The notes under the pieces are model-generated. The model searched no databases and was not told where the DNA came from. It saw nothing but the letters and a program-made list of their open reading frames with translations. 64,000 nt of DNA from NCBI GenBank assembly GCA_034522365.1, contig JAXHLI010000011.1:61766-125765 (forward strand). Direction: 5' to 3'. Source of the stretch: Desulfurivibrio sp. (lineage in GTDB: Bacteria; Desulfobacterota; Desulfobulbia; Desulfobulbales; Desulfurivibrionaceae). Positions 2,704 through 45,754 of this stretch are shown piece by piece (position 1 is the stretch's first letter; each line of letters begins with the position of its first letter). Both the position numbers and the translations under genes were made by a program.

Positions 2704-3855
2704 TCAGCCGCCGAACATCAGGCCTACCTGAGCCCATTGCGCGGAGGGGATTTCGCTGGCCAGTTTCAGGGCGCCGGCGGCGCCGATCCGCTCCGGATCA
2801 TCGACCCGGGTGACCCGGACCTCGCCGTAATCGCGCAGGGCGCTGGCGATCATGGTGTCCAGCCCACGGATTCGGGAGCCGCAGCCGGCCAGGTAGATAT
2901 GGCGCAGCACCTCCTCCTGGTCTTCGGGGTCAAAGGAGGCGATCAGGATTTCCAGTTGCTCGACGATATTGGGTACCATGCTCTCGCAGACCGTGCGCAG
3001 CTCCTCGGTGATGTCGAGTTGCACCGGCTTGCCTTCCACCCGCAGGGTGACCGTCACCGGGGTTTCCGGCTCGCCGACAAAGGCGTGTTCCTCCTTGAGC
3101 CGGCAGGCCAGGGGGAGGGTGAGCTGGGCGCCGGGATGGCGGCGGGTGATGGCCGCTTCCAGCCGTTCATCCAGGTAGTCGCCGCCCTTGAAGGTGGTTA
3201 TCTGATCCTCGGCCGCCGGCAGTGACCCCTTGACGCCGCAGATATCGACGGTGCCGGCCCCGATATCGACGATAATGGCCCGGTTGAGGCGTCCCAGGGC
3301 GTAGGCCACCATAAAGGGTTCGGAGACCACCAGGGCCCGGTCCATCACCTCGCGGGCGAGATCCAGCAACACCTCCTTGTTCATCAGCGAGGCCCGGGCT
3401 GGAACCCCGATCACGCCGTTGACTTCGACTCCGGGGTGGTCGGCTTTAATCAAGGCGACCAGGTGGTGGACCAGTTCCCTGGCCGCCCGGTAGTCCCGTT
3501 CACTGGCTTCTCGGATCACCCCTTCCGAGAGGGGTGAACAGAGTTCCAGAAAGTTGCGTTTATCCAGGGCTTCGGCGCCGAAGAGCGGGCCGTCGCCCAC
3601 CGCCTGCCGGCTGATAACATCCTTGGGATAGCCCACCACCGAGCGCAGTTCAAATTCCTGGCCGTTGTCGGCCAGGATCACGGTGCGGCAGGTGCCGAGA
3701 TCAATCCCCACCGTGAGCCGCCCGCCGCTTGCCGCTGGTACGGCGCGTTGCGGTGTGGTCTGCTCCGGCTCTCCGGCCGTTGCCGGGCTGTCGTCTGCAA
3801 CTGGTTCGGGGCTGTCGCTGGTATCGTTTACTTGTTCCTCGTCTGGAAACGCCAT
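2704..3855 (-). CDS. mamK: MamK-family actin-like ATPase (canonical copy) with acidic N-terminal extension
   Basis: GIDLGT, SVVGYPKDVI, VIGVPARAS, LVVSEPFMVAY, IIVDIGAGTVDIC, GSRIRGL and GALKLA closely follow MamK as recalled; ATG 3855 has a GAGAGG RBS (alternative GTG at 3894). Confidence 0.88.
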   Translation of the reverse strand: MAFPDEEQVNDTSDSPEPVADDSPATAGEPEQTTPQRAVPAASGGRLTVGIDLGTCRTVILADNGQEFELRSVVGYPKDVISRQAVGDGPLFGAEALDKRNFLELCSPLSEGVIREASERDYRAARELVHHLVALIKADHPGVEVNGVIGVPARASLMNKEVLLDLAREVMDRALVVSEPFMVAYALGRLNRAIIVDIGAGTVDICGVKGSLPAAEDQITTFKGGDYLDERLEAAITRRHPGAQLTLPLACRLKEEHAFVGEPETPVTVTLRVEGKPVQLDITEELRTVCESMVPNIVEQLEILIASFDPEDQEEVLRHIYLAGCGSRIRGLDTMIASALRDYGEVRVTRVDDPERIGAAGALKLASEIPSAQWAQVGLMFGG

Positions 3856-3905
3856 GGTCCGAATCCTCTCTGCTTTGGTTGGTTGCTTATCCACTTATTT
3901 AAAAT

Positions 3906-4484
3906 CTATGCGGGGCGCTGTTGGGCGGCGGCCAGCAAGTCCCGGACTACCCGGCCGGGCAGATAATGGCTGCCCTCGACATAGATCAGGCACTCCTCCA
4001 GTTCCCCGTGGGCGGTGGCCAGCTCCTCCTCCAGGGCCCGCCGTTGTTGCTCGGCGGCGGTGACCTGCTGCCGCAGCCGCGCCGTTTCCGTTTCCTGCTG
4101 GTGCAGCTTGTTCTCCAACTCGGGGATTTTATCATTTTCTGCCGTTATTTGCTTGAGTTGGAGCTGGTTTTCCTCCAAATGGCGGCTCAAGGCGCGGAAA
4201 TCCTGGTGGCTGCCCTCCAGGGTGGCGGTCAGGCTGGTTATTCTTTCCCGTAGAGTGGTGATCTCCTGCTCGCGGCGTTCGATCTCTTGCTGCTGGCTGT
4301 TTAGTTCGTCGTTTAGTCGTTGTTGCTCCGCCCCGTAATTTTTGATGGTCTGGCGGGTGGCCTCGTCGGCGGCCTCAATTTGTTGCCTGGCGTGGCGGAG
4401 CCGGCGCTGCTGTTGGAGCCAGACCGCACCGCCGCCCAGCAGGGCGCCGGTTACCAGGTACAGCAGAATCATGGATTCCATCAT
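3906..4484 (-). CDS. N-terminally membrane-anchored coiled-coil protein
   Basis: Single TM (ILLYLVTGALLGGGAVWL) followed by a long Q/E/L/R heptad-rich region; 4-nt overlap with the upstream actin gene. Confidence 0.85.
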   Translation of the reverse strand: MMESMILLYLVTGALLGGGAVWLQQQRRLRHARQQIEAADEATRQTIKNYGAEQQRLNDELNSQQQEIERREQEITTLRERITSLTATLEGSHQDFRALSRHLEENQLQLKQITAENDKIPELENKLHQQETETARLRQQVTAAEQQRRALEEELATAHGELEECLIYVEGSHYLPGRVVRDLLAAAQQRPA

Positions 4485-5560
4485 TTATCTCCGGCCAGTT
4501 GAATTTCGTGGTTCACGGTGAAATCGGCATCATGCCAGCGCTCCGGCGGTAATTCCGCCGCCAGGCGCAAGGCCCCCAGGGCGCCGGCGTATTCGGGCTC
4601 GGCGAGGGCGCTTACCCGCACCTGGCCATAGTCGGCCAGGGCTTGGGCCAGGGCTTGGGGCAGGCCCTGGATATGGGCGCCGCCGCCGGTGAGAAAAATG
4701 TTTTGTAAGACTTCATCAAGGTCCTCGGGGTCAAATTCGCGGAGAAGAGCAGTCAACCGTTCGGTGATTTCCGGCACCAGTCTCTGACAGACCAGCCCCA
4801 ATTCCTCGCTTAGATCGTATTGCCGGGGCTTGCCGGCCGCCCGCAGGGTCACCACCACCGGAGCAGGCGGGGAGCCCACGTAGGCGTGTTCCTCCTTGAT
4901 TCGCCGGGCCAGCTCCCGGGTCATCCGGACTTCGGGATAGCGCTGGTTGATCAGGCTTTGCAATTGTTGATCGAGATGATCGCCACCGTGGGGTAGAATC
5001 ACCCGTTCGTTGGTGGCGGGAACCCGGCCCCGGCAGGGGCAGATGGTGATACCCCCGGCGCCGATATCGATCAGCAGGCTGTTGTCCAGCCGCTCCAGAT
5101 GATAGGCCACCGGCAAGGGTTGGTCGACTAGCAGAAAAGCGGAGAGTAGCTCACCGGCAATGGTCGTCAGGGTTTGCCGGCCGCCGGCTTCCAGGGTGGC
5201 CGGCACCGCGATTACCCCGCTTACCCGTGCTGGCCGGTGGTCAACGTCGGTTTCGGCGGCGAGGGCCAGTGCGATGACGTGCCGCAGCAACTCCCCGGCG
5301 GCGTTGTAATCCTGACGCCGATCCTGGGCGATGGTGCCGTTGCTCAGGGGGTGGTAGAGGGTGAGGGCGCTTTTGTGTTCCAGGGCCCGGGCGCCAAAGA
5401 CCTGCGATTCCCCCAGGGTTTTCAGGGCAATGATATCCCGGGGGTAACCCACCACCGAATCGACCAGGTGACGGGCGCCGCGGTTGGAAACCACCGCCGT
5501 CCGGGCGGTGCCCAGATCGATACCCAACAGCAGCCGGTTTTCGGCCTCCGGTTTGCTCAT
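4481..5560 (-). CDS. Second, divergent MamK-family actin-like protein
   Basis: GIDLGTART, SVVGYPRDII, LIDIGAGG, IKEEHAYVG, LRAAGKP, QNIFLTGGG, GALRLAAELPP; catalytic-loop VSEP replaced by VDQP; ATG 5560 has a GGGGAG RBS (alternative ATG 5584). Confidence 0.85.
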   Translation of the reverse strand: MSKPEAENRLLLGIDLGTARTAVVSNRGARHLVDSVVGYPRDIIALKTLGESQVFGARALEHKSALTLYHPLSNGTIAQDRRQDYNAAGELLRHVIALALAAETDVDHRPARVSGVIAVPATLEAGGRQTLTTIAGELLSAFLLVDQPLPVAYHLERLDNSLLIDIGAGGITICPCRGRVPATNERVILPHGGDHLDQQLQSLINQRYPEVRMTRELARRIKEEHAYVGSPPAPVVVTLRAAGKPRQYDLSEELGLVCQRLVPEITERLTALLREFDPEDLDEVLQNIFLTGGGAHIQGLPQALAQALADYGQVRVSALAEPEYAGALGALRLAAELPPERWHDADFTVNHEIQLAGDK

Positions 5561-5624
5561 GTTCTCCCCTGTCAACTTGGTCATCGGTCAGAAATCAGGA
5601 CTTTTGCGAAGATAACGGATTACG

Positions 5625-5653
5625 ATCGTAGTGGTAAGCAGAGGTGATGTCAA
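5625..5653 (-). promoter_or_regulatory. Sigma70-type promoter of the actin operon
   Basis: Minus strand reads TTGACA-N17-TACGAT. Confidence 0.7.
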
Positions 5654-5735: not shown

Positions 5736-5789
5736 AAAAACGCCACCCCCGGTCGGCAGTCAACGGGACTGCCGACCGGGGGTGGCGTT
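5736..5789 (-). terminator. Intrinsic terminator downstream of SDMT
   Basis: Perfect 23-bp stem (5739-5761/5767-5789), 5-nt loop, ending in a T5 run on the minus strand. Confidence 0.8.
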
Positions 5790-5839: not shown

Positions 5840-6676
5840 TTACGGTTGGCGGAAGTGGAAAATACCCCAGGCCAGGTTGCCCTGTTTGGCGTTGTTGATC
5901 CAGTGGCCCAGGCCGGTTTTCATCCGGTCGATATAGGCCTGGCTAACGCCGGCTTCCCGGCACTGTTGTTCCAGCCGTTCCAGTTCCGCCAGTACCTTGC
6001 CGTAATGGTTGGCCAACTGGTGGGAGTGGTCCTCGAAGGCCACTTCCGTAAGGCCCAGCTTGGCGGCCTGCTGGCGATAGAAACCGGGAGAACCCAGCGA
6101 CGAGAGGTGGATCCGGTCATAAACCGGTTGCAGGGTGGCCGGATCGGCGTCGTCGGTCTGCATCGGGTCGGTGAAGATCAATTCCCCACCGGGTTTGAGC
6201 ACCCGGGCGGCCTCGGCGATCACCTTGGCCCGGTCGCCGGAATGGAGAAAGGCGTCCTGGGACCAGACCACGTCGAAAGTGGCGTCCTGGTAATGGAGGC
6301 TGGTGAAGTCGTCGTCCACCACCTCAATCAGGTTTTCCAGCCCCTGTTCGCGATTTTTCTGACGATCCCGCTCATTTTCCGCCTCGGAAAGATTGAGCGC
6401 CACGCACCGGCAACCGAAAGTCCGGGCCAGGTAGCGCATTGAACCGCCGTAGCCGGCCCCGAGATCCAGGACATAGCTATCCTTGCCCAGGTTCTGCAAA
6501 CGCTGGGCCATATGCGCCACGGTCCGCCGGCTGGCGGTGGCGATATCCTCATCGGGCGTCTCATAGAGTCCGATATGGAGATCCTCGCCGCCCCAGACGG
6601 TATGGTAGAAGATATCGGCATCGTCGCTGTTATAGTATTCCCGGGCCGTTTGTACGACATCATCATACTGGCTCAT
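5840..6676 (-). CDS. Sarcosine/dimethylglycine N-methyltransferase (SDMT)
   Basis: YYNSDDAD..YHTVWGGEDLHIG, VLDLGAGYGG SAM motif, WSQDAFLH, LAWGIFHF; adjacent to GSMT. Confidence 0.9.
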   Translation of the reverse strand: MSQYDDVVQTAREYYNSDDADIFYHTVWGGEDLHIGLYETPDEDIATASRRTVAHMAQRLQNLGKDSYVLDLGAGYGGSMRYLARTFGCRCVALNLSEAENERDRQKNREQGLENLIEVVDDDFTSLHYQDATFDVVWSQDAFLHSGDRAKVIAEAARVLKPGGELIFTDPMQTDDADPATLQPVYDRIHLSSLGSPGFYRQQAAKLGLTEVAFEDHSHQLANHYGKVLAELERLEQQCREAGVSQAYIDRMKTGLGHWINNAKQGNLAWGIFHFRQP

Positions 6677-6686
6677 GGTATCGCCC

Positions 6687-7508
6687 CTAAATTGTTTCCT
6701 GATCTTCTTCGATGTAGTGCTTTTCGGCGACGTGGATGTAAAAATCGGGCTGTTCGCCGCGGTATTTTTCTTTGAAGTCGCCGTAGGTGGTGATGGTCTG
6801 AAAACCGACCTGGAACATCAGTTTACGGGTATAATCCTTACGCAACGGGAACATATTGAGGTGATAGACCGAGCCGTCGGCAAAGGTGTAGCGGAAGCGG
6901 GCCAGGCCGTCGTCGACATGCTCGGGCTCGGCGGAGACATCGTCGCCGCAGTAGTAGAATTGATGCTTGTTGCCGTAGGAGCCGTCCAGCAGGGCGTCGT
7001 AATTGCGCTGGTCTAGGATCAGCAGGCCGTCATGCTTGAGCATGGCGTAAAACTCGGCCAGGGCCTTGCGGCGGTCATGTTCCCTGAACAGGTGGGTAAA
7101 ACTGTTACCCAGGCAGATGATGGCGTCGAATTCACCGTGGACGTCGCGGTTGAGCCAGCGCCAGTCGGCCATTACGGTGCGCAGGACATGGCCCCGTTTA
7201 CGGCCGTTATCAAAGGCCTTGAACAGCATCTCGGCGGAACCGTCGGCGGTGACCACCTCGAAACCGGCCTCGATCAGGCGGCAGGAGTGGAAACCGGTAC
7301 CAGAGGCCACATCGAGAACTTTTTTGACCCCGTGTTCCTTAAGGGTATCAATAAAGAAATCACCTTCGCTCTTCGCCCGGCTTTCCCAGTCGATCAAATC
7401 GTCCCATTTGTCGACGAATCCCTTGACGTATTCATCGGTGTAGTGGTCAGTATCACGCATTGCCACCGGGTCGGTACCAAACTCTTGTTTACTGGTTTTG
7501 GAAGACAT
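6687..7508 (-). CDS. Glycine/sarcosine N-methyltransferase (GSMT)
   Basis: FVDKWDDLIDWESR, VLDVASGTGFHS, ICLGNSFTHL, DQRNYD, YYCG motifs. Confidence 0.92.
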   Translation of the reverse strand: MSSKTSKQEFGTDPVAMRDTDHYTDEYVKGFVDKWDDLIDWESRAKSEGDFFIDTLKEHGVKKVLDVASGTGFHSCRLIEAGFEVVTADGSAEMLFKAFDNGRKRGHVLRTVMADWRWLNRDVHGEFDAIICLGNSFTHLFREHDRRKALAEFYAMLKHDGLLILDQRNYDALLDGSYGNKHQFYYCGDDVSAEPEHVDDGLARFRYTFADGSVYHLNMFPLRKDYTRKLMFQVGFQTITTYGDFKEKYRGEQPDFYIHVAEKHYIEEDQETI

Positions 7509-33910: not shown

Positions 33911-36100
33911 CTATCCCAGTCCCAGGGCCATGCCCAGCTGGTAGATGATTACCGACAGTCCAAAAGCGAAGATGGTGTTGCCAATCATGGCCAGGGCGCC
34001 CCATTTCCAGGAGCCGGCCTCCCGGGCGATGCAGACCACGGTGACGAAACAGGGGGCGTAGAACATCACGAAGATCAGCAAAGCCAGGGCCTTGACCGGG
34101 TTCCAGGTGGGGTCCCGGGCCAGGGTGGCGGCCAGCGACCCGCCGGCCTCGGGATCGACCTCGCCCAGCGAGTAGGCGGTGCCCAGGGTGGAAATCACCA
34201 CCTCCTTGGCGGCGAAACCGCCGACCAGAGCGATGTTGGTGCGCCAGTCAAAACCGGCCAGCCAGGTCACCGTCTCCAGGCCGTGGCCGATCCGGCCCGC
34301 CAGAGACAATTCCAGGGCCCGTTCCGCCCGGTGATGTTTCAGTGCTGCCAGGCGTTCGGCAACACTTTCTTCGGCCTCCATGGTCGTTGCCTGGGCGAGT
34401 TCGGTTTGCAGGGCGGTCCGTTGGGTGGCCAATTCTGCTTCCTCGTGGGCCGGCAGCCCGGGGAAGGTCATCATCGCCCAGAGGATAATGGAGATCGCCA
34501 GGATAACGGTGCCCGCCTTTTTGATGTAATGCCAGGTACGTTCCCAGGTATGAATCAGCAGGCCGCGCAGGGTGGGCAGCCGATAGGGCGGCAGTTCCAT
34601 CACGAAGGGGGTGGCCGGGCCGCGCAGTACCGTCAGGCGGTAGAGTTTGGCCACCAGCATGGCCACCAGCCAGGCCAGCAGGGTAAGGATAAACATCATC
34701 AGCGCCTGGTGGCCGGCGAAGAACACCGCGATCAGCAGGGCCGTTACCGGCAGTTTGGCGCCGCAGTTCATAAAGGAGACGGTGAGCAGGGTGGCCAGCC
34801 GTTCCCGCCGCGATTTGAGGGTCCGGGTGGCCATGACTCCCGGCACCGCGCAGCCGCCGGCGATCCCGCCGGAGACGATATAGGCCATCACCGAACTGCC
34901 GTGCAGGCCGAAGGTACGGAAGACGCGGTCCATCATGTAGGCGACCCGGGCCAGATAGCCGGTATCCTCTAAAATGGCGATGCCGAAAAACATGAACATG
35001 ATCAGCGGCACGAAACCCAGCACCCCGCCGACCCCGTCGATGATGCCCGAGATCAGCAAAGACTTGAGCAGCCCCTCCGGCAGCTTGGCCTGGGCCAGCT
35101 CGCCCAGTTGACCGAACAGCGCCTCCAGCCACTGTACCGGTAGTTCGCTGAAGGTGAAGGTGAAGGTATAGAGGCCGAACAGGATCGCCAGCATAATCAG
35201 CGGCCCCAGCAGGCGGTGGGTCAGCACCAGGTCGATTAGGTCCGAAATATAGAGCCGATCGACGTGGTGACTCTGGCGGACCACCCCCTGTTGCAGGGTG
35301 GAGCGGATAAAGCCGTAACGGTGGTCGGCTATCAGGGCTTCCGGCTGGGCGGCCAGGGTGCTTTGCTGGTGGCGGATGGCCTGCTCGCGCAGCACGTCCA
35401 GTTGAGTGGCGGCCTGCTGGTCGTGGCGGCTGATCATCTCCCGGACCTGGCTGTCGTTTTCGAGATATTTCAGGGCCAGCCAGCGGGCCGGATAGGTGGC
35501 GGTCAGCAGTTGCCGCTGCTCGATCAGGGCCGCCATTTCCAACAGGGCGCTGTCGAGGTCCTCGCCGTAGGAAACCGGCAGGGGTTGCCAGTCCGGAGCG
35601 CTTGCCGCCAGGCGGCGGGCTTCGCTCATCAGGGTTTGCAGGCCGGTGCCGCTGCGGGCGACGATCGGCACCACCGGTACCCCCAGCAGGGCGGCCAGTT
35701 TGTCGGTGTCGATTTCCAGACCGCGTTCTTTGGCCACGTCCATCATGTTCAAGGCGATCAACACCGGCACGCCCAGTTCCCGCAGCTGCAGGGTGAGGTA
35801 GAGGTTGCGCTCCAGGTTGGAGGCGTCGACGATGTCGATCACCACGTCGGGTCGTTCCTGGACCAGGAAATCGCGGGCCACCACCTCCTCAAGGGAGTAG
35901 GCGGCGAGGGAGTAGGTACCGGGCAGGTCGATGATCCGGCAGCGGCTGCCGTCGGGCAGGGGGTAGTCGCCCTCCTTCTTCTCGACGGTGACTCCGGGGT
36001 AGTTGCCGACGTGCTGGCGGGCTCCGGTAAGGGCGTTGAAGAGGGTGGTCTTGCCGGCGTTGGGATTGCCGGCCAGGGCCACGGTGAACGGGGGGGTCAT
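33911..36100 (-). CDS. feoB: Ferrous iron transporter FeoB (copy 2)
   Basis: [42 protein letters not shown]; true start ATG 36100 overlaps feoA. Confidence 0.95.
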
Positions 36101-36357
36101 CGGTCCGCCTCCTTGTCTCCGGGGCTCTCCAGGGCGACCTCGATATGATCGGCCTCGTTGTTGCGCAGGGTGAGGGTGCCTCCCATCACCCGCAGGGCCA
36201 CGGGATCGTTGAGCGGCGCCCGGCCCTGGATGGTGATCCGGGTGCCGGGCACCAGGCCCATTTCCCGCATACGTTGGCTCAATTCGCCGCTGCCACTGAT
36301 TTTGGTGATAACGCCACTTTCGTTTTTGGCCATTCGGCGCAGGTTGATGATTGTCAT
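36097..36357 (-). CDS. feoA: FeoA
   Basis: [23 protein letters not shown]. Confidence 0.93.
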
Positions 36358-36380
36358 ATGGAGCCCCCGGAACTTTCAAA

Positions 36381-36435
36381 CGGCACTGCTGAACGGTTAC
36401 GGCCCGTTAAATCAGTGGCCGTTGGCCTTGGTGAA
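36381..36435 (-). repeat. GTAAnCGTTCA-family repeat in the feoA 5'UTR
   Basis: Reverse complement ttcaccaaggccaacggccactgatttaacgggccgtaaccgttcagcagtgccg, near-identical to the 52231 copy. Confidence 0.75.
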
Positions 36436-36460
36436 AACTTTCAAGTTGAAGCGGAGTCTG

Positions 36461-36489
36461 CTTATAACGGACCTTGATTTCGTAGTCAA
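36461..36489 (-). promoter_or_regulatory. Sigma70-type promoter for feoAB copy 2
   Basis: TTGACT-N17-TATAAG; upstream inverted repeat TTCTAA-N5-TTAGAA (36494-36510). Confidence 0.55.
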
Positions 36490-36570
36490 CAATTTCTAAA
36501 GACGTTAGAATTAAATTATGTTACCCAAAAACAGTCGACAAATAGTCATTAAGGTAGACGGGGAGTTATT

Positions 36571-36861
36571 ATGTTCTGGGAATATCTGATTTTAGTACTG
36601 ATTATCGGGTGGGCGGTATATTATCTGGGGCGCAAATTCTGCGGGCGGGGGCGGGGAGGCTGTTCCTGCGGTTCATCCTGCGGCCCCTCTGGCGGGCCCG
36701 ACCGGAGCACGGTCCGGAGATTGCGGCGGGACGCGATAAGTAAGGCCCGCGATCACCGATCCTGGCGCCGGCTCGGGGGCGGGTGGGTGCAAACTGCAGT
36801 AACCGTTCAGCAGTGCCGCAGATTGTCGGCGCTCGACGCCGATAACGTGCGGAGTTGCTGA
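36571..36861 (+). CDS. FeoB-associated Cys-rich membrane protein (true 3' end probably shorter)
   Basis: GGGAG RBS; TM helix then GGCSCGSSCG; the ORF tail runs into a repeat element. Confidence 0.7.
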   Translation: MFWEYLILVLIIGWAVYYLGRKFCGRGRGGCSCGSSCGPSGGPDRSTVRRLRRDAISKARDHRSWRRLGGGWVQTAVTVQQCRRLSALDADNVRSC

Positions 36862-36869
36862 ATGGTTAC
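36799..36869. repeat. Palindromic GTAAnCGTTCA-family element
   Basis: Terminal inverted repeats GTAACCGTTCAGCA / TGCTGAATGGTTAC around an inner hairpin ttgtcggcg-ctcga-cgccgataa. Confidence 0.75.
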
Positions 36870-36930
36870 AAACTGCATGACGTCAGCGGGGAGTGGCAAC
36901 CAGGGTGGAAGCCACTCCCCACCAGTCTCT

Positions 36931-37170
36931 CTAGCCATGCCATTGGTAGATTTCGGCGGCGGGGCCAGCGTCGCAACAGCCGCCGCCGCCACACTTGCCA
37001 CCACAATCGGCGGCTGGCGTGAGCAGGGAGACCTTGCCCTTGGCTGTCCAGCGCGCCAGCATGGCCCGCATCGCCTCCGGTTCGGTATCGAAATGGAGGG
37101 CGAGATCGTGCAGGGAGGCGCGTCGGTGCTGCTTAAGGTAATCTTTTATGGCGGTAAGCATGGTTGTCAC
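36931..37170 (-). CDS. feoC: FeoC-like winged-helix Fe-S protein
   Basis: IKDYL..ASL.DLA.HF, ML..W..KGKV, CGGKCGGGGCC, EIYQW. Confidence 0.88.
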   Translation of the reverse strand: MTTMLTAIKDYLKQHRRASLHDLALHFDTEPEAMRAMLARWTAKGKVSLLTPAADCGGKCGGGGCCDAGPAAEIYQWHG

Positions 37171-37177
37171 CTCCCGG

Positions 37178-39517
37178 TTAAGAAATGGTCTGCGTTTGGG
37201 GCCGCCCGCTCACCAGGGGCAGGGCGGCGCGTTCCTTGTTGCCCTGCCGGGCCATGACCATGATCGCCAACAGCAGCAGTGCCCCCAGGCCGCCGATCCA
37301 CAACGCCGAGGAGAGGGGATGCCGGGCAAAGGTGGCCGCCTGGTAGAAGACGGTGGCCGCCATATAGGCCAGCCCGCCGTTCCAGGAACAGGAAAAGAGG
37401 GTCCAGCGCAGGTTGGTCTCCCGGTAAATGGCGGCAATGGCCGCGCCACACGGCACATAGAGCAGGACCATGAGCAGATAGGCAAAAGCTCCCACCTTAC
37501 CGTCGAAGAGTTCCGCCATGGCCCCAAAGGTACCCACCGCCACCTCCTGTTCCGCCGCCGCGCTCTGCAGGGTGGCGACATCACCGACTGCCAGCCCCAG
37601 GGGGTCGAGCACGGTGTCGGCGACTCCCGCCAGGTTAACCGGGATGGAGACCAGGGATTCCTGGATGCCGCCCCAGAAATTAAAGGGTTCCTCCTCGCCA
37701 CCCCCTTCCACGGGGGCGCCGAGCTGGGCGTAGAGGGAGTCCAGGGTGCCCACCACAGCCTCCTTGGCCAGGATGCCGGTGAAGATGCCCACCGTGGCCG
37801 GCCAGTTATCCTCGCTGATGCCGGTGGGGGCGAAGATGGGGGTAATGCTCTGGCCCACGGTGCTCAACATGGAGCTCTTGCTGTCTTCGTGGCCGATGGT
37901 GCCGTCAGGCCCCAGGGTGTTCAATAGATTCAACACCAGGATCAGGGGAATCAAAATCTTGCCGGCCCGTAACATAAAGCTTTGCAATCTCTCATAGGCC
38001 CGGAAAAGCACCCCCCGGGCGGTGGGCAGGTGGTAGGGGGGCAACTCCATGACAAAAGGGGTGGCCTCCCCTTGCAACAGGGTGTTCTTGAGGACCATGC
38101 CGGTGAAGACCGCAAACCCCACCCCGATCAAATAGAGCAGAAAGACCAGATTCTGCCCGCCGGTGGGGAAGAAGGCGGCGGCAAAGAGGGCATATACCGG
38201 CAGCCTGGCGCCACAGGAGATAAAGGGAGTCATCATAATGGTCAGCAGCCGATCCCGCTGGTTTTCCAAGGTACGGGTGGCCATGAAGGCCGGCACGTTA
38301 CAACCGAAGCCGACCAGCATCGGCACGAATGATTTCCCCGGCAGGCCCATAAGGCGCATAAAGCGATCCATGACGAAGGCGGCGCGGGCCATGTAACCGG
38401 AATCCTCCAGAAAGCTGAGACAGATAAACATAAAGGCGATGGGCGGGATAAAGGTGGCCATGGTTTGCAGCGCGCCACCAATGCCGGTGGCCAGCACCGC
38501 GATCAACCAGTCCGGCGCACCGACGGCGGCCAGCAGGGCGCCGAAACCGTCGACGAAAACGGTACCGGCGAAGATATCGAAAAAATCAATAAAGGCCCCG
38601 CCGATATTGATGGTCACCATGAAGGTCAAATACATGGCCAGCAGAAAAATGGGAATTCCCAGGGCCCGATTGAGGACAATACCATCAATTTTGTCGGAGA
38701 GGGTGCGCCCCACCCGCCCTCTCTTCTTGACCGCCCCTTGCGTCAACTCTTTGATGATTCGGTAACGGCTGTCGGCCAGGAGGATATCGACCTCCTCATC
38801 CAGCTCGGTTTCAATCTGCTGTTGCAGCTGGTCCCGGACCTTGGCGGCTTCGGCTCCCGCCAGTTCCTCCACCCATGCTTCCCCTTCCAGCAGCTTTACC
38901 GCCATATAGAAGGGGTTGAGCCGCCGGGAGCGGGCGGTCTCCGCCACCAGCGGCAGCAGTTTGCTCACCGCCTCCTGGATTTGCCCGGGATATTCCACCT
39001 GCAGATTTGGTGGTGCCGGGGTCCGGGCGCTCTGGTCGATGGCGGCGCGCAGTTCCGCCACGCCTTCGCCCCGGGCCGCCACCAGCGGTACCACCGGGCA
39101 TCCCAGGCGGCGGCTCAACTCCTCCAGGTCGATCTCGATTTGCTGCTCTTTGGCGCTGTCCATCATGTTCAGGGCCAGCACCAGGGGCACCTTCATCTCC
39201 AGCAGTTGCACCGTCAGATAGAGATTACGTTCCAGATTGGAGGCGTCGACGATATTGACGATCAGGTCCGCTTCCTCGGAAAGGGTGAAATCCCGGGCCA
39301 CCTCTTCATCCAGGGAGGCGGCGGAAAGCGAGTAAATGCCGGGCAGGTCCACTAACTCGACCTTCTCCCCGCCATAATGGTATTCGCCGGTTTTGCGCTC
39401 GACGGTGACCCCCGGCCAGTTGCCCACCTGTTGCCGATTACCGGTCAGGGCGTTGAACAGGGTGGTCTTGCCGCAATTGGGGTTGCCCACCACGCCGATT
39501 ACTTTTTTAGCCATCAC
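37178..39517 (-). CDS. feoB: Ferrous iron transporter FeoB (copy 1)
   Basis: GNPNCGKTT, NWPGVTVE, DSGYMARAA, GFGCNVP, CGARLP, LYVPC. Confidence 0.96.
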   Translation of the reverse strand: MMAKKVIGVVGNPNCGKTTLFNALTGNRQQVGNWPGVTVERKTGEYHYGGEKVELVDLPGIYSLSAASLDEEVARDFTLSEEADLIVNIVDASNLERNLYLTVQLLEMKVPLVLALNMMDSAKEQQIEIDLEELSRRLGCPVVPLVAARGEGVAELRAAIDQSARTPAPPNLQVEYPGQIQEAVSKLLPLVAETARSRRLNPFYMAVKLLEGEAWVEELAGAEAAKVRDQLQQQIETELDEEVDILLADSRYRIIKELTQGAVKKRGRVGRTLSDKIDGIVLNRALGIPIFLLAMYLTFMVTINIGGAFIDFFDIFAGTVFVDGFGALLAAVGAPDWLIAVLATGIGGALQTMATFIPPIAFMFICLSFLEDSGYMARAAFVMDRFMRLMGLPGKSFVPMLVGFGCNVPAFMATRTLENQRDRLLTIMMTPFISCGARLPVYALFAAAFFPTGGQNLVFLLYLIGVGFAVFTGMVLKNTLLQGEATPFVMELPPYHLPTARGVLFRAYERLQSFMLRAGKILIPLILVLNLLNTLGPDGTIGHEDSKSSMLSTVGQSITPIFAPTGISEDNWPATVGIFTGILAKEAVVGTLDSLYAQLGAPVEGGGEEEPFNFWGGIQESLVSIPVNLAGVADTVLDPLGLAVGDVATLQSAAAEQEVAVGTFGAMAELFDGKVGAFAYLLMVLLYVPCGAAIAAIYRETNLRWTLFSCSWNGGLAYMAATVFYQAATFARHPLSSALWIGGLGALLLLAIMVMARQGNKERAALPLVSGRPQTQTIS

Positions 39518-39753
39518 TGGTTCCTCCTTTCCACGTAAAGGGTTGCCGCCTCATCCTTGCGTAACGAGAGAGCGAAGCCGCGCACTTCAATCCCCACTGG
39601 ATCACCCATGGGGGCGATGCGGGAGACGATGATTTCCGTCCCCTTGGTCAGTCCCATGGCCAGCAGCTTTTCCCGGTAAGCCGAGGTTCCCTTGGCGTAG
39701 CCGGCAACCACGGCGCGCTCCCCCATGGCCAAATCTCGCAGAGTTTCTTTCAT
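39514..39753 (-). CDS. feoA: FeoA
   Basis: KLLAMGL..G, APMGDP, LSLRKDEA. Confidence 0.94.
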   Translation of the reverse strand: MKETLRDLAMGERAVVAGYAKGTSAYREKLLAMGLTKGTEIIVSRIAPMGDPVGIEVRGFALSLRKDEAATLYVERRNQ

Positions 39754-40028
39754 CGTTCTTCTCCCTTGGTGATGACTACTTGAATTTTATGGGCCATGCC
39801 GCCGCCCAGATACAAACGGCTGTCGCCATGTTCCAGGAGCAGCTTGCCATCCATGGGATTGCAAAGCACCCGCACCGTGACGCCGGGCCGCAAGCCCAGG
39901 GCGGCCAACCGTTCCCTGGCCCCGCCACCTCCGTTGATGGCCACGATCCGCCCTTGTTCGCCTTCCTGGGTGAAGCGCAACGGGACACTGCCCGGCACCG
40001 CCACCCGCTCTTTGGCCACCCCGTTCAT
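39750..40028 (-). CDS. feoA: FeoA-family protein
   Basis: RLAALGLRPG, SRLYLGGGMAHKIQV; start uncertain (40028-40091). Confidence 0.88.
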   Translation of the reverse strand: MNGVAKERVAVPGSVPLRFTQEGEQGRIVAINGGGGARERLAALGLRPGVTVRVLCNPMDGKLLLEHGDSRLYLGGGMAHKIQVVITKGEER

Positions 40029-40097
40029 GGTAACAATCCTCCTGGCCGGCGCCCCCGGCCGTGGGCCAGCCATTTTTATTGTGCACGTCAAATTGAA

Positions 40098-40159
40098 TTA
40101 GGTGACCTAAATACAAGCAGGCAAAATTAATGTCAACACTTTTTATTAGGCGCTCTTAA
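40098..40159 (-). promoter_or_regulatory. feoAABC promoter with two candidate DtxR/IdeR-like operators
   Basis: TTGACA-N17-TATTTA overlapping the perfect palindrome TTAGG-TGA-CCTAA (40098-40110); second site TTAGG-CGCT-CTTAA (40146-40159). Confidence 0.65.
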
Positions 40160-40216
40160 GAAATTGTTGGCGGTCAAAGATCAAGGTGCTATCCGGGCTG
40201 GCTGGCGAATATTTTA

Positions 40217-40247
40217 TTTGACATTCAAATATCTTTAAGATAAAGAT
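40217..40247 (+). promoter_or_regulatory. P1B ATPase/MarR operon promoter with tandem palindromes
   Basis: TTGACA inside TTTGA-CAT-TCAAA, followed by ATCTTT-N5-AAAGAT; candidate operator for the downstream MarR. Confidence 0.45.
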
Positions 40248-40279
40248 TTGCCAATTTCCAACCAACCAACATTTACGAG

Positions 40280-42205
40280 GTGACAAAGATGATCGGCCGT
40301 TTTTCCACCCTGGGGGCCTACCGGGAACTTTTCAATCTGCGGGAATTTTATCTCTGCCTGCTGGGCGGCGGCCTGGCGCTGGCCAGTTTTATCCTGGAGG
40401 GGCGCGCCGAGTGGCCGGACTGGCTGGCCATTGCCCTGGGCTTGGCCGCCGTGGCCATCAACGGTTTGCCCATTATTTGGGGAGCAATCAAGGGGATCTG
40501 GGCCCACGAGGTGAACGTCGATGAACTGGTCAGCATCGCCATCGTCGCCTCCTTGTTCCATGGCGAAGTATTGACCGCCGCGGTGGTCAGCTTCGTGATG
40601 ACCCTGGGGGCCCTGGTGGAGGAGGTGGTTAGTGACTCCGCCCGCCGTTCCATCCGCTCCCTGGTGAGCCTGACCCCCCAGGAGGCCACCCTGCTGGCGG
40701 ACGACCAGGAACGGGTGGTGCCGGTCTCCCGGGTCCGGCCCGGCGATCTGGTGCTGATCAAACCGGGGGAGCGGATCCCGGTGGATGCCGAAATCGTGGC
40801 CGGCGAAACGGCGGTGGATGAAGCGGCCATCACCGGCGAGTCGATTCCCCGCGCCAGAAGGGAAGGGGACCGGGTGCTGGCCGGCACCATGAATTTCAGC
40901 GGGGTGATCGAAGCCCGGGCGACCAGAGTCGGCGAGGACACCACCTTCGGCAAGGTGGTCCGCCTGGTGACCGAGGCGGAGACCCACAAGCCTCGCACCG
41001 CCCGGATTGTCGACCGTTACGCGCAATGGTTCACCCCCCTGGTGCTTTTCTGCGCAACCCTGGCCTGGTGGCTCACCGGCGAGGTTGACCGGGCGGTGGC
41101 CATTCTCATTGCCGGCTGCCCCTGTGCCCTGATCATGGCCGCCCCCACTGCCACCGTGGCCGCCATCGGCCGTCTGGCCAAGGCGGGTATCCTGGTCAAG
41201 GGGGGGCAATTTCTGGAAGAGGCGGCCCGCGCCGATACCTTTCTTTTCGACAAGACCGGCACCCTGACCCTGGGTGAACCCCGGGTGGAGGAGGTGGTGC
41301 CGGGGGAGAATTTCACTTCCCGGGAGGTGGTCACCTGTGCCGCCTGTGTGGAGCAGAATTGCAGCCACCCGCTGGCCAAAGCGGTGATGAAGGCCGCCTA
41401 CTACGCCAAAATCACCGTTGGCAAGGCGGAACAGATGCTGGTGGAGATCGGCCTGGGGGTCCGGGCCCTGGTTGACGGCAGCACGATCGAGGTGGGCAAC
41501 GCCGATCTGGGCGGCGGCGAGGCGGCCCTGCAAGCTCCGCTGCGGGAGTGTTTGGGGCGGATCAAGGAGCGGGGTTCCACCGCCCTGGTGGTCTATCGTG
41601 ACCAGCAGCCCATCGGGGTGCTGGGGGTCTCGGACAAAGTGAAAACTTCAGCGGCAACGACCATTGAGGCCCTGCGCGCCATGGGCATCCGGCAGCTGGG
41701 GGTACTGTCGGGCGACCATGATAAACCGGTACGTAATCTGGCTGACAGGATCGGCCTGGACAAAAGCTGGTCGGCATTGAAACCCCAGGACAAATTGAGT
41801 ATTATCCAGCAGTATCAGCAGCAGGGGCACCGGGTGATCTTCGTCGGTGACGGGGTCAACGACGCTCCGGCCCTGGCCCGCGCCAACGTGGGGATCGCCA
41901 TGGGAGCAGCCGGTACCGATGTCGCCCTGGAAACCGCCGATGTCGCCCTGACTCGCGACGATATCGCCCTGCTCCCTTTTTTCGTCGCCCTCAGTCGCCG
42001 GATGCTAACCACCGTCAAGTTCAACATCGGCCTGGGATTGTTTTTTAACGGCGTCGCCATCCTGGGCAGCGGTTATGGGCTGTTGAGCCCGATCATGGCG
42101 GCGCTGTTCCACAACGGCGGCTCGATTATCGTGGTGCTCTCCTCGGCCAGCCTGGCCTTTGTCACCCCAGGGAAGCATCTGAAAACGCCCGCTCCGGGCA
42201 GGTGA
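40280..42205 (+). CDS. Heavy-metal P1B-type ATPase (CPC type, no N-terminal metal-binding domain)
   Basis: TGES, GCPCAL, DKTGTLT, SHP, GDGVNDAP, HNGGS. Confidence 0.93.
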   Translation: MTKMIGRFSTLGAYRELFNLREFYLCLLGGGLALASFILEGRAEWPDWLAIALGLAAVAINGLPIIWGAIKGIWAHEVNVDELVSIAIVASLFHGEVLTAAVVSFVMTLGALVEEVVSDSARRSIRSLVSLTPQEATLLADDQERVVPVSRVRPGDLVLIKPGERIPVDAEIVAGETAVDEAAITGESIPRARREGDRVLAGTMNFSGVIEARATRVGEDTTFGKVVRLVTEAETHKPRTARIVDRYAQWFTPLVLFCATLAWWLTGEVDRAVAILIAGCPCALIMAAPTATVAAIGRLAKAGILVKGGQFLEEAARADTFLFDKTGTLTLGEPRVEEVVPGENFTSREVVTCAACVEQNCSHPLAKAVMKAAYYAKITVGKAEQMLVEIGLGVRALVDGSTIEVGNADLGGGEAALQAPLRECLGRIKERGSTALVVYRDQQPIGVLGVSDKVKTSAATTIEALRAMGIRQLGVLSGDHDKPVRNLADRIGLDKSWSALKPQDKLSIIQQYQQQGHRVIFVGDGVNDAPALARANVGIAMGAAGTDVALETADVALTRDDIALLPFFVALSRRMLTTVKFNIGLGLFFNGVAILGSGYGLLSPIMAALFHNGGSIIVVLSSASLAFVTPGKHLKTPAPGR

Positions 42206-42209
42206 TTGT

Positions 42210-42662
42210 ATGGAAACGGAAACCCTGACCCAGTTGCTGATCGAATTCTACGAGAAATTCTCCTCCTGGGAGCATGGGGTGGTCAAGGAGTCCGGCCTGA
42301 CCCTGCCCCAGATGCACACCCTGGAGCTGCTGGGCGCCGCCGGTGATCTGCGGATGACCGAGCTGGCGGCCAAGATGGGCACCACCACCGGCTCTCTGAC
42401 CGTAATGGTGGATCGGCTGGAAAAAAACGGGCTGGTGGCCCGCCGGCCCCACGAGACCGATCGCCGTTCCACCCGGGTCGGGCTCACTGAAGAGGGAGCG
42501 AGGCTCTTCCGGGAACACCATGAGCTGCATACCAGGCTGACCCAGGATATAGCGGCGGCCCTCTCCCCGGGAAGTGCAGGCCTTCGGCGACCTTTTAAGC
42601 CGTATAACCGCGAGTTTATGACCATGATATGGGGGCAGAGAAACCAAGGACCAAAAGGATAA
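42210..42662 (+). CDS. MarR family regulator (C-terminus frameshifted near 42570)
   Basis: LTLPQMH, ELAAKMG, VDRLEKNGLV, DRRS..LT..G; an alternative frame gives a typical end (EVQAFGDLLSRI). Confidence 0.85.
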   Translation: METETLTQLLIEFYEKFSSWEHGVVKESGLTLPQMHTLELLGAAGDLRMTELAAKMGTTTGSLTVMVDRLEKNGLVARRPHETDRRSTRVGLTEEGARLFREHHELHTRLTQDIAAALSPGSAGLRRPFKPYNREFMTMIWGQRNQGPKG

Positions 42663-42665
42663 TAT

Positions 42666-43352
42666 ATGAAAGCCTGGAAATGCACGGTATGTAATTATGT
42701 TCATCAAGGAGACACGCCGCCGGAAATATGTCCGGTATGCGGGGCTGGTAAGGACAAATTTGTGGAAATTGAGGTCCCGGATGAAATAGCGGCCGCAGCA
42801 CCGGATGCCGCCGTTGATACGACCAATGCTACGGCAGTGGAGCAGGATGCCAGGACCACCATGGGGCAGACCGGATCGGTCGATTCCGGCAGAAAAAAAG
42901 CTGATTTGGCTCCCAGGACCTTGTATCGAAAGATCACCCATCAGTTGATCCGGCACCATGCCCACCCCATTCTGGTGCATACCCCCAACGGGATTCTGCC
43001 GGCAGCCGCCATCCTGTTTATCATCGCCTGGCTGTTTGACGCATCCCTGCCGGCCAAGGCCGCTGTTATTAATCTGGTCTTTGTGGTCCTGGCCCTGCCC
43101 CTGGTACTGTACACAGGCGTGCTGGAATGGAAGGGGAAATACAACCAGGCAAACACCCGGCTGTTTCGACGCAAAATTATGGCCGCAGCGGCGACCAGTG
43201 CAGCCTGCGCGATTTCCATGGGCTGGTACCTGCTGGACCCGCAAGTTTTGTCATCTTCGCTGGCGTGGCTGTTCATTCTTATCAACCTGGTAATGCTGGG
43301 CTCTGCCGGCGTGGCCGGCTACATTGGCGGCAAATTCGTGTTCAAAGACTGA
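42666..43352 (+). CDS. Rubredoxin-like domain fused to a four-TM membrane domain
   Basis: WKCTVC..CPVCGA; HP.LVH.P motif and TM helices ending in GYIGGKFV (DUF2231-like). Confidence 0.85.
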
Positions 43353-43377
43353 TACGGATTTTTGCAGAAGCATATCG

Positions 43378-43420
43378 GTAATCGTTCACCAGGGCCGATA
43401 ACCGTGGGCCGAACGGTTAC
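43378..43420 (+). repeat. GTAAnCGTTCA-family repeat
   Basis: gtaatcgttcaccagggccgataac...gaacggttac with terminal inverted repeats. Confidence 0.7.
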
Positions 43421-43453
43421 TAAAAGATGCAACAGTTTCCGGTCTGCGCAAGG

Positions 43454-43517
43454 AGACAAACCGTCAACCGATTGCGGATTTGTCACGACAAATCCGCAAT
43501 GAGTTGACGGTTTGTCT
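43454..43517. repeat. 64-bp near-perfect palindrome
   Basis: 15-bp plus 14-bp paired arms, a 2-nt mismatch and a 2-nt centre; abuts TTGACA-N17-CATGAT. Confidence 0.85.
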
Positions 43518-43553
43518 TGACAAGGCCAGCCGGGATGGCCATGATGCAGAGGC

Positions 43554-44620
43554 ATGAAACGGAGATCTATCCGACCCTTATCAATGATCTTGCTCGCAAG
43601 ATGGTGTTTCTCTGGCCCCAGGCAGGTGGGTAAAACCTGGCTGGCCCGGCGGGTGATGGAAGAGTACGCCCGACCGCGCTATCTCAACTGGGATAATGAG
43701 CAGGATCGGGAGGTTCTTCGCCAACAGGGCTGGGGTGGGGACATTGATCTACTGGTGCTGGACGGGAAATCCATAAGATGGCCCAGTGGAAAAATTAGCT
43801 CAAGGGCGTGTGGGATACCAGGCCGGAGAAGATGGCGGTGCTGGTGACCGGCAGCGCCAGATTGGAGACCTTTCGCCAATCCGGCGACAGTCTGGCTGGA
43901 CGTTACTTTCATCATCGCCTCTTCCCCTTTACCCCGGCCGCAATCGGCGGCGATCGGCCAAAACGGCGAACTGAACCACTTTCTGCAGCGTGGCGGCTTT
44001 CCCGAACCCTGGCTGGCCGCCGATTCCGCCGACGCCGGGCGCTGGCGACGTCTCTACCTCGATGGTTTAATCCGCGAGGATATCCTTAATTTTGAAAATA
44101 TCTCCCGACTTAAGGAGATGAATCTGCTGCTTGAGATGCTGCGTGACCGGGTGGCCTCTGCGCTGACTCAGAGCCTGGCGGAGGATTTGGCGATTTCGCC
44201 CAGATCAGGTAAAGCGTTATCTCGACATTCTGGAGGCGCTTTACATCATCTTTCGGGTATATCCCCACCACCGCTCGGTTGCCAGGGCTATCCGAGCTTC
44301 AGCCACTAAAGTCGATTTTCTCGATTAATCCCCTGGCCAGGGGGGGAGGGGCAGAGGTTGGAAAACCTGGCGGCCCTTGCTCTCTACCGGCAACTCTCTT
44401 TTCTGGAAGATCGGGACGCAGCTCCCCCGCCGCCTGCGTTACTGGCGCACCCGCGACGGCAAGGAGGTCGATTTTTTCGATTGTTGAAGAGCATCAACCC
44501 AAACTGATGCTGGAGATTAAGCAGAGCGAGCTGACCAACTGGCGGCCCGGTTTGGTAGTAATTTTGGCCAGAGGTACCAGATTCCCGGCGTGCAACTGGT
44601 TGCCGATTTAAGGGCCGAAA
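43554..44620 (+). pseudogene. AAA_14/DUF4143 ATPase, multiply frameshifted
   Basis: GPRQVGKT, LVTGSARL, GDSLAGRY, GGFPEP, LIREDI and GKEVDF found in different frames. Confidence 0.85.
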
Positions 44621-44767
44621 ACCACGCTCCCCCTCTGCCGCTGCTGCGCCTCTACGATTTTCTCCTGCTCTCCCCATGGCTTCTGATGACTTTTTCCGTC
44701 CGGCGACGATGGACTTATCGTGCCAGTCCACTTTATTTGAAATGGGGTTACTCGTCTGGTTTTTCGT

Positions 44768-44817
44768 TTGACATGTCCGATCAAAGTAACTACCCTGCGA
44801 GGGACTGCACATAGTCC
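44768..44817 (+). promoter_or_regulatory. vapBC promoter and candidate autoregulatory operator
   Basis: TTGACA-N17-TACCCT followed by GGACT-N6-AGTCC; related TGGACT-N9-AGTCCA at 44710-44730. Confidence 0.6.
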
Positions 44818-44839
44818 ACATACATCAGGAGGTTTTGCT

Positions 44840-45072: not shown

Positions 45073-45074
45073 GC

Positions 45075-45733: not shown

Positions 45734-45754
45734 CAAACTAAGCGGAGGCGCACC

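What the first reader, a model, noticed from the sequence alone, without database searches (positions are those of the whole stretch)
2704..5653. Stand-alone dual-MamK actin plus membrane-anchor operon outside any magnetosome cluster
Seen: a compact unit with its own TTGACA-N17-TACGAT promoter, insulated upstream by a 23-bp terminator, encoding divergent actin -> TM/coiled-coil protein (4-nt overlap) -> canonical MamK-like actin. It sits among housekeeping and osmolyte genes, and no mamA/B/E/I/M/O/P/Q gene is recognisable in 64 kb. Known: MamK filaments align magnetosomes through adaptor proteins such as MamJ; MamK homologues in non-magnetotactic bacteria are largely uncharacterised. Inference: a minimal membrane-tethered actin cytoskeleton that positions some other cargo (storage granule, sulfur or iron organelle, membrane vesicle) or shapes the cell.
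Basis: partly seen in the sequence, partly recalled or inferred. Interest (0 to 1): 0.9.

Follow-up and report, generated by a model that had tools for sequence, protein, structure and literature searches.

The report
Magnetosome-type actin pair with membrane tether
Many non-magnetic sulfur-cycling bacteria of one order carry a conserved three-gene unit of two relatives of the magnetosome actin MamK and an uncharacterised membrane protein; all three are made as proteins in a cultured relative and likely form a membrane-anchored filament that probably helps give the cell its curved shape.

Summary
On the minus strand lie a promoter, a divergent MamK-family actin (K1), a membrane-anchored coiled-coil protein and a canonical MamK-family actin (K2). 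No magnetosome cluster was found in this 86%-complete Desulfurivibrio genome or in three 99-100% complete congeners. The unit is an order-level module: the coiled-coil protein's C-terminal motif occurs in 46 of 301 Desulfobulbales genomes, next to a MamK gene in 44 (29 full triads, 13 one-actin dyads, one cut, one remnant). It travels with a conserved promoter through different neighbourhoods, is under purifying selection, and decays as a unit. Published proteomics of D. dismutans detects all three proteins: K2 as abundant as MreB, K1 7-15 times rarer. One genome holds both the dyad and a separate magnetosome cluster with its own mamK. Best reading: a K2 filament tied to the inner membrane by the coiled-coil protein, with K1 as a minor regulatory subunit, probably shaping the vibrioid cell. 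Binding, polymerisation and function are untested. Ten literature searches found no description. The scan earlier reported a different, amidase-linked MamK module on other DNA, not this one.

The parts
5739..5789 (-). Perfect 23-bp hairpin plus T run; intrinsic terminator, likely of the upstream methyltransferase genes, insulating the unit
   Evidence: stem 23, loop 5, one copy in the genome
5625..5653 (-). Sigma-70-type promoter, TTGACA-N17-TACGAT; the -35 box is conserved upstream of the module in relatives
   Evidence: TTGACA within 300 nt upstream in 25 of 29 module loci against 7.4% of random windows; shared extended motif
4481..5560 (-). K1, divergent MamK-family actin (359 aa from ATG 5560; open frame from 5584); Gln where AMB-1 MamK has Glu143; phosphate-2 Thr replaced by Gly
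3906..4484 (-). Single-pass membrane protein (191-192 aa): N-terminal TM helix with GxxxG, about 140-residue cytoplasmic coiled coil, conserved C-terminal beta-hairpin-helix with HxLPxxVxR
2704..3855 (-). K2, canonical MamK-family actin (383 aa from ATG 3855; open frame from GTG 3894) with intact nucleotide motifs and a 43-residue acidic, Pro-rich N-terminal extension

Best explanation
The three genes form a conserved unit in non-magnetotactic Desulfobulbales and likely encode a MamK-type actin filament tied to the inner membrane, which probably helps set the curved (vibrioid) cell shape. Steps: (1) shown: K2 has intact MamK nucleotide motifs, and in D. dismutans it is as abundant as MreB; (2) inferred from about 50% identity to solved MamK: K2 polymerises with ATP into MamK-like double filaments along the cell; (3) predicted: the membrane protein sits N-out/C-in, likely dimerises (GxxxG, coiled coil), and projects a stalk of about 20 nm whose conserved C-terminal hairpin-helix would grip the filament; (4) inferred: K1, degenerate at catalytic positions in this family and 7-15-fold rarer than K2, would act as a minor subunit that seeds, caps or slows turnover of the filament; (5) inferred, weakest step: a filament held along one face of the membrane would bias growth or stiffen that face, as CcfM with MamK and MamY is described to do in Magnetospirillum. 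I put the tethered filament (steps 1-3) at about 0.75 and the shape role at about 0.4.
For: Linkage: motif protein in 46 of 301 order genomes, beside a MamK-family gene in 44, on another contig in 2 (read from coordinates). At least five unrelated flanking contexts. Promoter travels with it. dN/dS below 1 for all three genes in 8 of 8 pairs. Joint loss: deletions through all three genes in G006, and a K1::K2 recombinant without the membrane gene in G094. Proteomics of D. dismutans (PMC12142623, Table S1 rows): K2 rank 83 and 100, membrane protein 197 and 311, K1 493 and 712, MreB 103 and 112, among 1,864 identified proteins. Topology: more Lys/Arg after the TM helix in 56 of 56 homologues; stalk 120-179 residues in the 51 with a matched motif; variable middle, conserved ends. 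Purified AMB-1 MamK did not pellet with liposomes (PMC12713370, passage), so it would need a tether. Both cultured carriers are curved (PMC5016858; PMC12142623). Precedent: CcfM, a curvature-inducing coiled-coil protein linking MamY and MamK (cited in PMC9512821, passage).
Against: No mutant, localisation or morphology contrast exists; shapes of the non-carrier relatives are unknown. The membrane protein has only 3-6 residues before its TM helix, so it cannot touch the wall directly. RS-1 MamK localisation did not follow curvature in E. coli. The module is dispensable: not found in G001 (99% complete) and G008 (100%) of the same genus, nor in 25 of 25 genomes of genus g8. K1 is canonical in families f3 and most of f5, and absent in f7 dyads, so a catalytically altered K1 is a lineage trait. 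A Gln at the Glu143 position also occurs in the cluster-encoded MamK of G037. Abundance ratios come from one species and from label-free estimates.
Confidence: 0.4

Rival explanations
1. Same tethered filament, but its job is to position or partition a membrane-bound cargo (iron, sulfur or polyphosphate compartment), as MamK does for magnetosomes; the membrane protein then sits in the cargo membrane like a MamJ-type adaptor.
For: This is the established role of MamK (PMC10653835 passages). Coiled-coil proteins plus two actins organise magnetosomes in RS-1 (PMC12748827 passages). The topology fits any membrane derived from the inner membrane.
Against: No cargo genes are linked in any context examined. 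D. dismutans thin sections are described as typical Gram-negative, and the word 'inclusion' does not occur in that paper. K2 level changes little between two growth modes (log2 -0.29, p 0.13).
Confidence: 0.25
2. The filament is a longitudinal landmark that places the subpolar flagella, a polar complex or the nucleoid.
For: D. dismutans has 1-2 thick subpolar flagella and a large nucleoid. The two genomes without fliG in a 27-genome check (G001, G003) also lack the module.
Against: fliG is present in 25 of those 27 genomes, including many without the module. No motility or partition genes are linked. One paper lists D. alkaliphilus as non-motile, another as motile.
Confidence: 0.17
3. A functionless or decaying relic of a lost magnetosome cluster.
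For: The cluster-encoded MamK of G037 falls in the same clade (96/89). Four of 301 order genomes carry magnetosome clusters. K1 is fast-evolving in this family, and the unit has collapsed in G006 and G094.
Against: Purifying selection, a conserved promoter, high protein levels, a partner protein not found in any of 41 magnetosome-cluster loci, and co-occurrence with an intact cluster that has its own deep-type mamK in G059. Descent from a cluster remains possible; lack of function is unlikely.
Confidence: 0.06
4. The organism is magnetotactic and the rest of the cluster lies in the unassembled 14% of the genome.
For: G000 is 85.7% complete.
Against: The closed genome G004 and the 99% complete G005 and G007 carry the same triad and show only generic CDF, HtrA and LemA-level scores. 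No magnetochrome-like motif in G000 frames.
Confidence: 0.02

Closest known systems
MamK of magnetotactic bacteria (PDB 5LJW, 5LJV, 5JYG; NCBIfam NF040964)
   Same: Best family and best solved relative of both actins. K2 keeps the phosphate-1, connect-1 (xEPx) and phosphate-2 (DxGxG) motifs. Tree position among MamK of Magnetococcales, Nitrospinota and Desulfobulbales.
   Different: No magnetosome cluster; partner is a membrane protein family not found in the cluster loci examined; K2 has an acidic N-terminal tail; K1 is below the family cut-off.
MamK plus MamK-like pair of Magnetospirillum magneticum AMB-1
   Same: A canonical and a very divergent MamK copy acting together (PMC9512821 passage; PMC2818848 passages). 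That MamK-like lacks the Glu143 equivalent is recalled, not read here.
   Different: In AMB-1 the second copy lies in an islet of other mam homologues and serves magnetosome chains; here both copies flank one membrane gene in a non-magnetotactic host.
CcfM and MamY (Magnetospirillum gryphiswaldense)
   Same: Membrane-associated coiled-coil or filament-forming proteins that act with MamK along the curved inner membrane; CcfM is called curvature-inducing.
   Different: The window protein is 191 aa with its own C-terminal motif and no Pfam, NCBIfam, PDB or fold match. Sequence relation to CcfM or MamY was not tested directly (no sequence at hand).
Mad28 with Mad20/23/25/26 (Desulfovibrio magneticus RS-1)
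   Same: Two actins plus coiled-coil proteins as one organising system.
   Different: Mad28 is 15-17% identical to MamK with SxGxG in phosphate 2; K1 and K2 are 44% identical to each other with DxGxG. RS-1's coiled-coil proteins lack TM helices.
BeeR (Verrucomicrobiota; PDB 8R2N) and Bbp (giant cable bacteria)
   Same: MamK-related actins of non-magnetotactic bacteria with unknown function; BeeR also has a 30-50 residue disordered N-terminal extension; Bbp lies in a three-gene cluster.
   Different: BeeR scores are 208 and 180 bits against a cut-off of 530; BeeR is 25-30% identical to MamK. Bbp is placed between MamK and MreB and its neighbours are a hypothetical and a Kelch-like gene; Bbp sequences were not compared here.
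Amidase-MamK pair of non-magnetotactic bacteria
   Same: A MamK-family actin tightly linked to a single-pass membrane partner outside magnetosome clusters.
   Different: Different actin branch, sister to deep-type MamK (100/100); its partner carries a wall amidase domain, while this partner has almost nothing outside the membrane.

Membership tests
MamK family | Score above the NF040964 cut-off (400 bits) | tested here: met
   K2 452 bits
MamK family | Score above the NF040964 cut-off, for K1 | tested here: not met
   K1 371 bits; still its best family by far, and K1 orthologues in f3, f5 reach 408-494 bits in most genomes
MamK family | Groups with MamK, apart from MreB | tested here: met
   100/100 split from MreB; 19-row clade with G037 cluster MamK 96/89, 80/88 when MreB is added. 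Magnetospirillum MamK, BeeR, Bbp, Mad28 and ParM were not in the trees.
MamK family | Nucleotide motifs xEPx and DxGxG (as given in PMC10653835) | tested here: met
   K2: both intact. K1: DxGxG kept, Glu replaced by Gln
MamK as magnetosome protein | Encoded in a genome with the core mam set (mamA, B, I, M, Q and others) | tested here: not met
   G000 85.7% complete, same result in G004, G005, G007
MamK family | ATP-dependent polymerisation into non-staggered double filaments | not testable with these tools
   needs purified protein; filament geometry recalled, structure papers not held
MreB | Score above MreB cut-offs; mreBCD context | tested here: not met
   49-61 bits against 293; 23-25% identity to the genome's own MreB on contig C16
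BeeR | Score above NF053558 cut-off (530 bits) | tested here: not met
   208 and 180 bits
Mad28 | SxGxG in phosphate 2 and 15-17% identity to MamK | tested here: not met
   DxGxG in both actins; 38-54% identity to shallow-type cluster MamK
Bbp | Clade between MamK and MreB; hypothetical and Kelch neighbours | tested here: inconclusive
   neighbours differ; no Bbp sequence was compared
CcfM / MamY / MamJ adaptors | Sequence homology of the membrane protein | tested here: inconclusive
   motif profile finds nothing below E 0.08 outside its own family in 41 cluster loci; no match to the G037 gene before mamK; Magnetospirillum sequences not at hand
Membrane adaptor of a MamK filament | Physical binding to the actin | not testable with these tools
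   needs pull-down or two-hybrid

The most novel reading that the evidence does not exclude
This is a two-actin bacterial cytoskeleton in which a rare, catalytically altered actin (K1) seeds or caps filaments of an abundant one (K2) at a dedicated membrane anchor, a bacterial parallel to actin-related proteins. The module may preserve the job MamK had before magnetosomes: the data do not reject it as sister to all magnetosome MamK (AU p 0.37 and 0.20), and one magnetosome cluster (G037) uses a MamK from this clade.
Probability: 0.15. Interest if true: 0.87.

Novelty: new variant of a known kind. Interest (0 to 1): 0.66.

Why it matters
MamK is treated as a signature of magnetotactic bacteria; one database survey reported no non-magnetotactic homologues inside the MamK clades and chose MamK as the search marker (PMC7449369 passages). 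Here 69 of 301 Desulfobulbales genomes carry a MamK-family gene and only 4 showed paired mamB/mamM on the mamK contig, so MamK alone misleads in this order. The module gives a small system in cultured bacteria for asking what a MamK filament does without magnetosomes, how it is tied to a membrane, and what a second, degenerate actin adds. If it sets curvature, it would be a route to vibrioid shape that has not been described.

Tried and rejected
Complex prediction of K2 with the C-terminal motif gave no verdict (score 0.01) and is used neither for nor against binding. Fold searches of the membrane protein found nothing: no Foldseek match at E 0.001, best Z 3.4; this does not show a new fold. 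Pfam and PDB profile searches with the motif were empty or at E above 1. The Atlas gave only unnamed or RmuC-like coiled-coil clusters. A recalled likeness of the hairpin-helix to the copper-amine-oxidase N domain got no support. RNA-library contigs of two studies cover all three genes of L038 in the 4 runs laid, but contigs cannot show level or a single transcript, so I rely on the proteomics. Supplements of PMC5516251 and PMC12545173 hold no rows for these genes (one PDF of the latter unreadable). CDF genes with middling MamM/MamB scores in G030, G025 and G050 lie among housekeeping genes and were not counted as magnetosome genes; the other such singletons were not inspected. fliG presence did not track the module. 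The extended promoter motif picked out no clear regulon in G000. An AU test rejected one clade of all cluster-encoded MamK (p 8e-5), but the amidase-linked rows were in that test and may alone cause the result, so I do not use it for direction; the rooted tests were inconclusive. The 83-row careful tree did not finish; 21 near-redundant loci were left out of it, and 35- and 29-row subsets were used for careful trees. Four papers were not held (Ozyamak 2013, Draper 2011, Abreu 2014, Bergeron 2017); older subscription literature may mention these genes. Look-ups of the scan's notes by sequence and by relatives returned nothing.
Full report
Observation. The unit is as described, on the minus strand: hairpin terminator (5739-5789, 23 bp, single copy), promoter TTGACA-N17-TACGAT (5653-5625), K1 (5560-4481), a membrane/coiled-coil gene overlapping K1's stop by 4 nt (4484-3906), and K2 (3855-2704). 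Starts are assigned from ribosome-binding sites. No terminator-like site separates K2 from the ClC channel gene 35 bp downstream. GC content of the three genes (0.62-0.65) matches their neighbours. The closest titled relatives are Desulfurivibrio.

The two actins. K2 passes the NCBIfam MamK cut-off (452 bits against 400) and K1 falls short (371); both are far from MreB (49-61 against 293) and BeeR (208, 180 against 530). Solved AMB-1 MamK is the best PDB match of both. The genome has a separate MreB on contig C16. K1 and K2 are 44% identical. K2 keeps every nucleotide motif apart from Gly to Cys in the adenosine loop, shared within its family. K1 has Gln at the place of MamK Glu143, Gly for the phosphate-2 Thr, and keeps 56 of 79 positions that are invariant in 27 canonical rows; five K1 of this family keep 56-63, six K1 of other lineages keep 73-78. 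Other K1 copies are altered differently: Asp to Lys in phosphate 1 (L038, L049), Glu to Asp (L047, L048), Glu to Lys (L128, L129). That Glu143 is catalytic is recalled. The cluster-encoded MamK of G037 also has Gln there, so K1 need not be dead.

The membrane protein. No Pfam family reaches its cut-off; hits are generic coiled coils. Seventeen homologues share a TM helix with invariant Gly and a C-terminal HxLPxxVxR motif around a variable middle. The model is one long helix (residues 2-163), a beta-hairpin (165-175) and a short helix, mean pLDDT 91. Lys/Arg follow the TM helix in 56 of 56 homologues, which places the stalk in the cytoplasm; the stalk is 120-179 residues (median 149) in the 51 with a matched motif, about 20 nm at 0.15 nm per residue. 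A motif profile found 25 proteins among 1.84 billion representatives; of 7 inspected, 5 have the family's architecture, 1 is a collapsed fusion and 1 is an unrelated repeat frame. In 401 genomes drawn across the phylum the motif was found in 4, all in this order.

No magnetosome cluster. Proteins from 41 magnetosome-cluster loci gave no hit in G000 for the clusters labelled MamI, H, N, Q, S, D (labels) or MamF and L (labels by position, recalled); only generic HtrA (31%), CDF (26%) and TPR hits. Profiles agree: MamM 112 bits, MamP and MamE at DegP level, MamQ none, MamA 69 bits. G004 (closed), G005 and G007 (99%) carry the triad with the same pattern, G007 adding a 76-bit MamQ-profile hit like those in control genomes. 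Positive controls G011, G037 and L065 showed real clusters.

Distribution. Of 301 genomes of the order, 69 have a MamK-family gene at E 1e-45 and 46 have the motif: f1 7 of 43 with G000, f3 5 of 6, f5 19 of 40, f7 15 of 16. Reading coordinates: 29 full triads, 1 cut by a contig end, 1 remnant, 13 actin-membrane dyads (f7) and 2 with the genes on different contigs. The 24 MamK genomes without the motif are 16 in f16 and 1 in f17 (11 of 12 inspected are amidase pairs), 3 magnetotactic, and G025, G070, G071, G094 (G070 is a dyad cut by a contig end). Flanks differ among lineages, yet the promoter stays: TTGACA upstream in 25 of 29 loci against 7.4% background, with an extended TTGACA-N12-CCATTGTA shared by triads of f3 and f5, dyads of f7, G025 and G071. 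Kin are not independent, so these counts show an inherited module, not repeated association.

Selection, loss and coexistence. dN/dS is below 1 in 8 of 8 pairs for each gene: K2 0.04-0.24, K1 0.05-0.39, membrane gene 0.05-0.57; distant pairs are near saturation. In G006 the three genes are collapsed by several deletions into under 1 kb; in G094 the first half of K1 is joined to the second half of K2 with a frame break and no membrane gene. Both are assemblies and could hold errors. G059 carries the dyad and, on another contig, a full cluster with a deep-type mamK, so the module is not simply a displaced cluster gene.

Expression. In the D. dismutans proteome (PMC12142623; passages and five table rows read), the three genes match locus L049 by coordinates. 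riBAQ with formate plus nitrate and with sulfur: K2 2.7e-3 and 2.0e-3 (rank 83, 100), membrane protein 1.2e-3 and 5.2e-4 (197, 311), K1 3.9e-4 and 1.3e-4 (493, 712), MreB 2.3e-3 and 1.8e-3 (103, 112), among 1,864 identified proteins. K2 to membrane protein to K1 is about 7:3:1 and 15:4:1. The paper's main text does not mention MamK and the table calls K1 a rod shape-determining protein. No expression data exist here for the window's own organism.

Phylogeny. K1, K2, dyad actins, G071 and the cluster MamK of G037 form one clade (96/89) beside other Desulfobulbales cluster MamK, Nitrospinota and Magnetococcales; K2 is a clade (100/100), K1 is unresolved. With MreB as outgroup the base is open, and trees with the module outside all cluster MamK are not rejected (p 0.37, 0.20). 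Direction of descent is therefore unknown.

Mechanism. An abundant intact actin, a half-as-abundant single-pass protein with a cytoplasmic stalk and conserved tip, and a rare altered actin fit a filament held about 20 nm from the inner membrane with a minor regulatory subunit. MamK did not bind liposomes by itself in one study (PMC12713370, passages). For the job I choose cell shape (0.4): both cultured carriers are curved (PMC5016858 passages; PMC12142623; D. alkaliphilus encodes the K2 orthologue P0003), no inclusions are reported, and CcfM is a precedent (second-hand, PMC9512821 passage). Against: no loss-of-function data, no periplasmic domain, and many relatives lack the module. Cargo positioning (0.25) and a polar or nucleoid landmark (0.17) stay open.

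Literature. Ten searches found no description of this unit. Seen: passages of PMC10653835, PMC10580974, PMC7449369, PMC7203096 (only the first 300,000 characters are held, and its Desulfurivibrio mention lies beyond them), PMC2818848, PMC12748827, PMC12713370, PMC4818849, PMC5016858, PMC9512821; part 1 of 3 of the BeeR preprint; whole text of PMC9522336; term searches and supplements of PMC5516251 and PMC12545173. Databases already label K2 orthologues 'MamK family actin-like protein'. Subscription papers were not searchable.

Verdict. Real, conserved, expressed in a cultured relative, not described in the library searched; a new variant of the MamK cytoskeleton with an uncharacterised membrane partner. 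Interest 0.66: the architecture is well supported and testable, the function is inferred.

Noticed in passing
L110-L119, L121 (families f16, f17): A second non-magnetotactic MamK module: a single-pass N-acetylmuramoyl-L-alanine amidase gene overlapping a deep-type MamK-family gene in 11 of 12 loci inspected; clade sister to deep-type magnetosome MamK. Noted earlier by this scan in other genomes.
   Followed up: partly
L042, L108 (G037): Magnetosome cluster in a Desulfobulbales genome with mamE, K, M, O, P, A and Q, B, S-like genes in an order like that of Magnetococcales; its MamK has Gln at the Glu143 position and falls in the module's clade.
   Followed up: partly
L043/L107 (G011) and L065: Magnetosome clusters with two mamK copies in tandem; in G011 followed by an FtsA-scoring gene, likely mad28.
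   Followed up: partly
L122, L141 (G174); L125, L139, L140 (G059): Two further magnetosome clusters with deep-type mamK in this order.
   Followed up: partly
L120:7645-8652 (G269): A long-branch MamK-family gene (387 bits) directly before a hopanoid-type glycosyltransferase gene, a third kind of stand-alone context.
   Followed up: no
L038:10095-10176, also near 8375 and 11499: A short repeated element sits between K1 and the membrane gene and at both ends of the unit; RNA contigs break there. It could affect the K1-to-K2 ratio; the window has no such spacer.
   Followed up: no
L131 and L132 (G093): Two module copies in one genome, one with a longer (over 269 aa) alanine/glutamate-rich stalk protein.
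   Followed up: no
window 33911-48551: Metal-handling stretch: two feoB genes (33911-36379, 37178-39517) and two heavy-metal P-type ATPases (40280-42205, 46779-48551); not linked to the module in relatives. A ferrosome-type role was not tested.
   Followed up: partly
window 5840-7508: Glycine/sarcosine and sarcosine/dimethylglycine methyltransferase pair for betaine synthesis, as expected in a haloalkaliphile.
   Followed up: no
family f7 genomes (L104, L106): 13 of 16 carry a CDF gene scoring 183-225 bits on the MamB profile, well above ordinary CDFs, in housekeeping contexts where inspected.
   Followed up: partly
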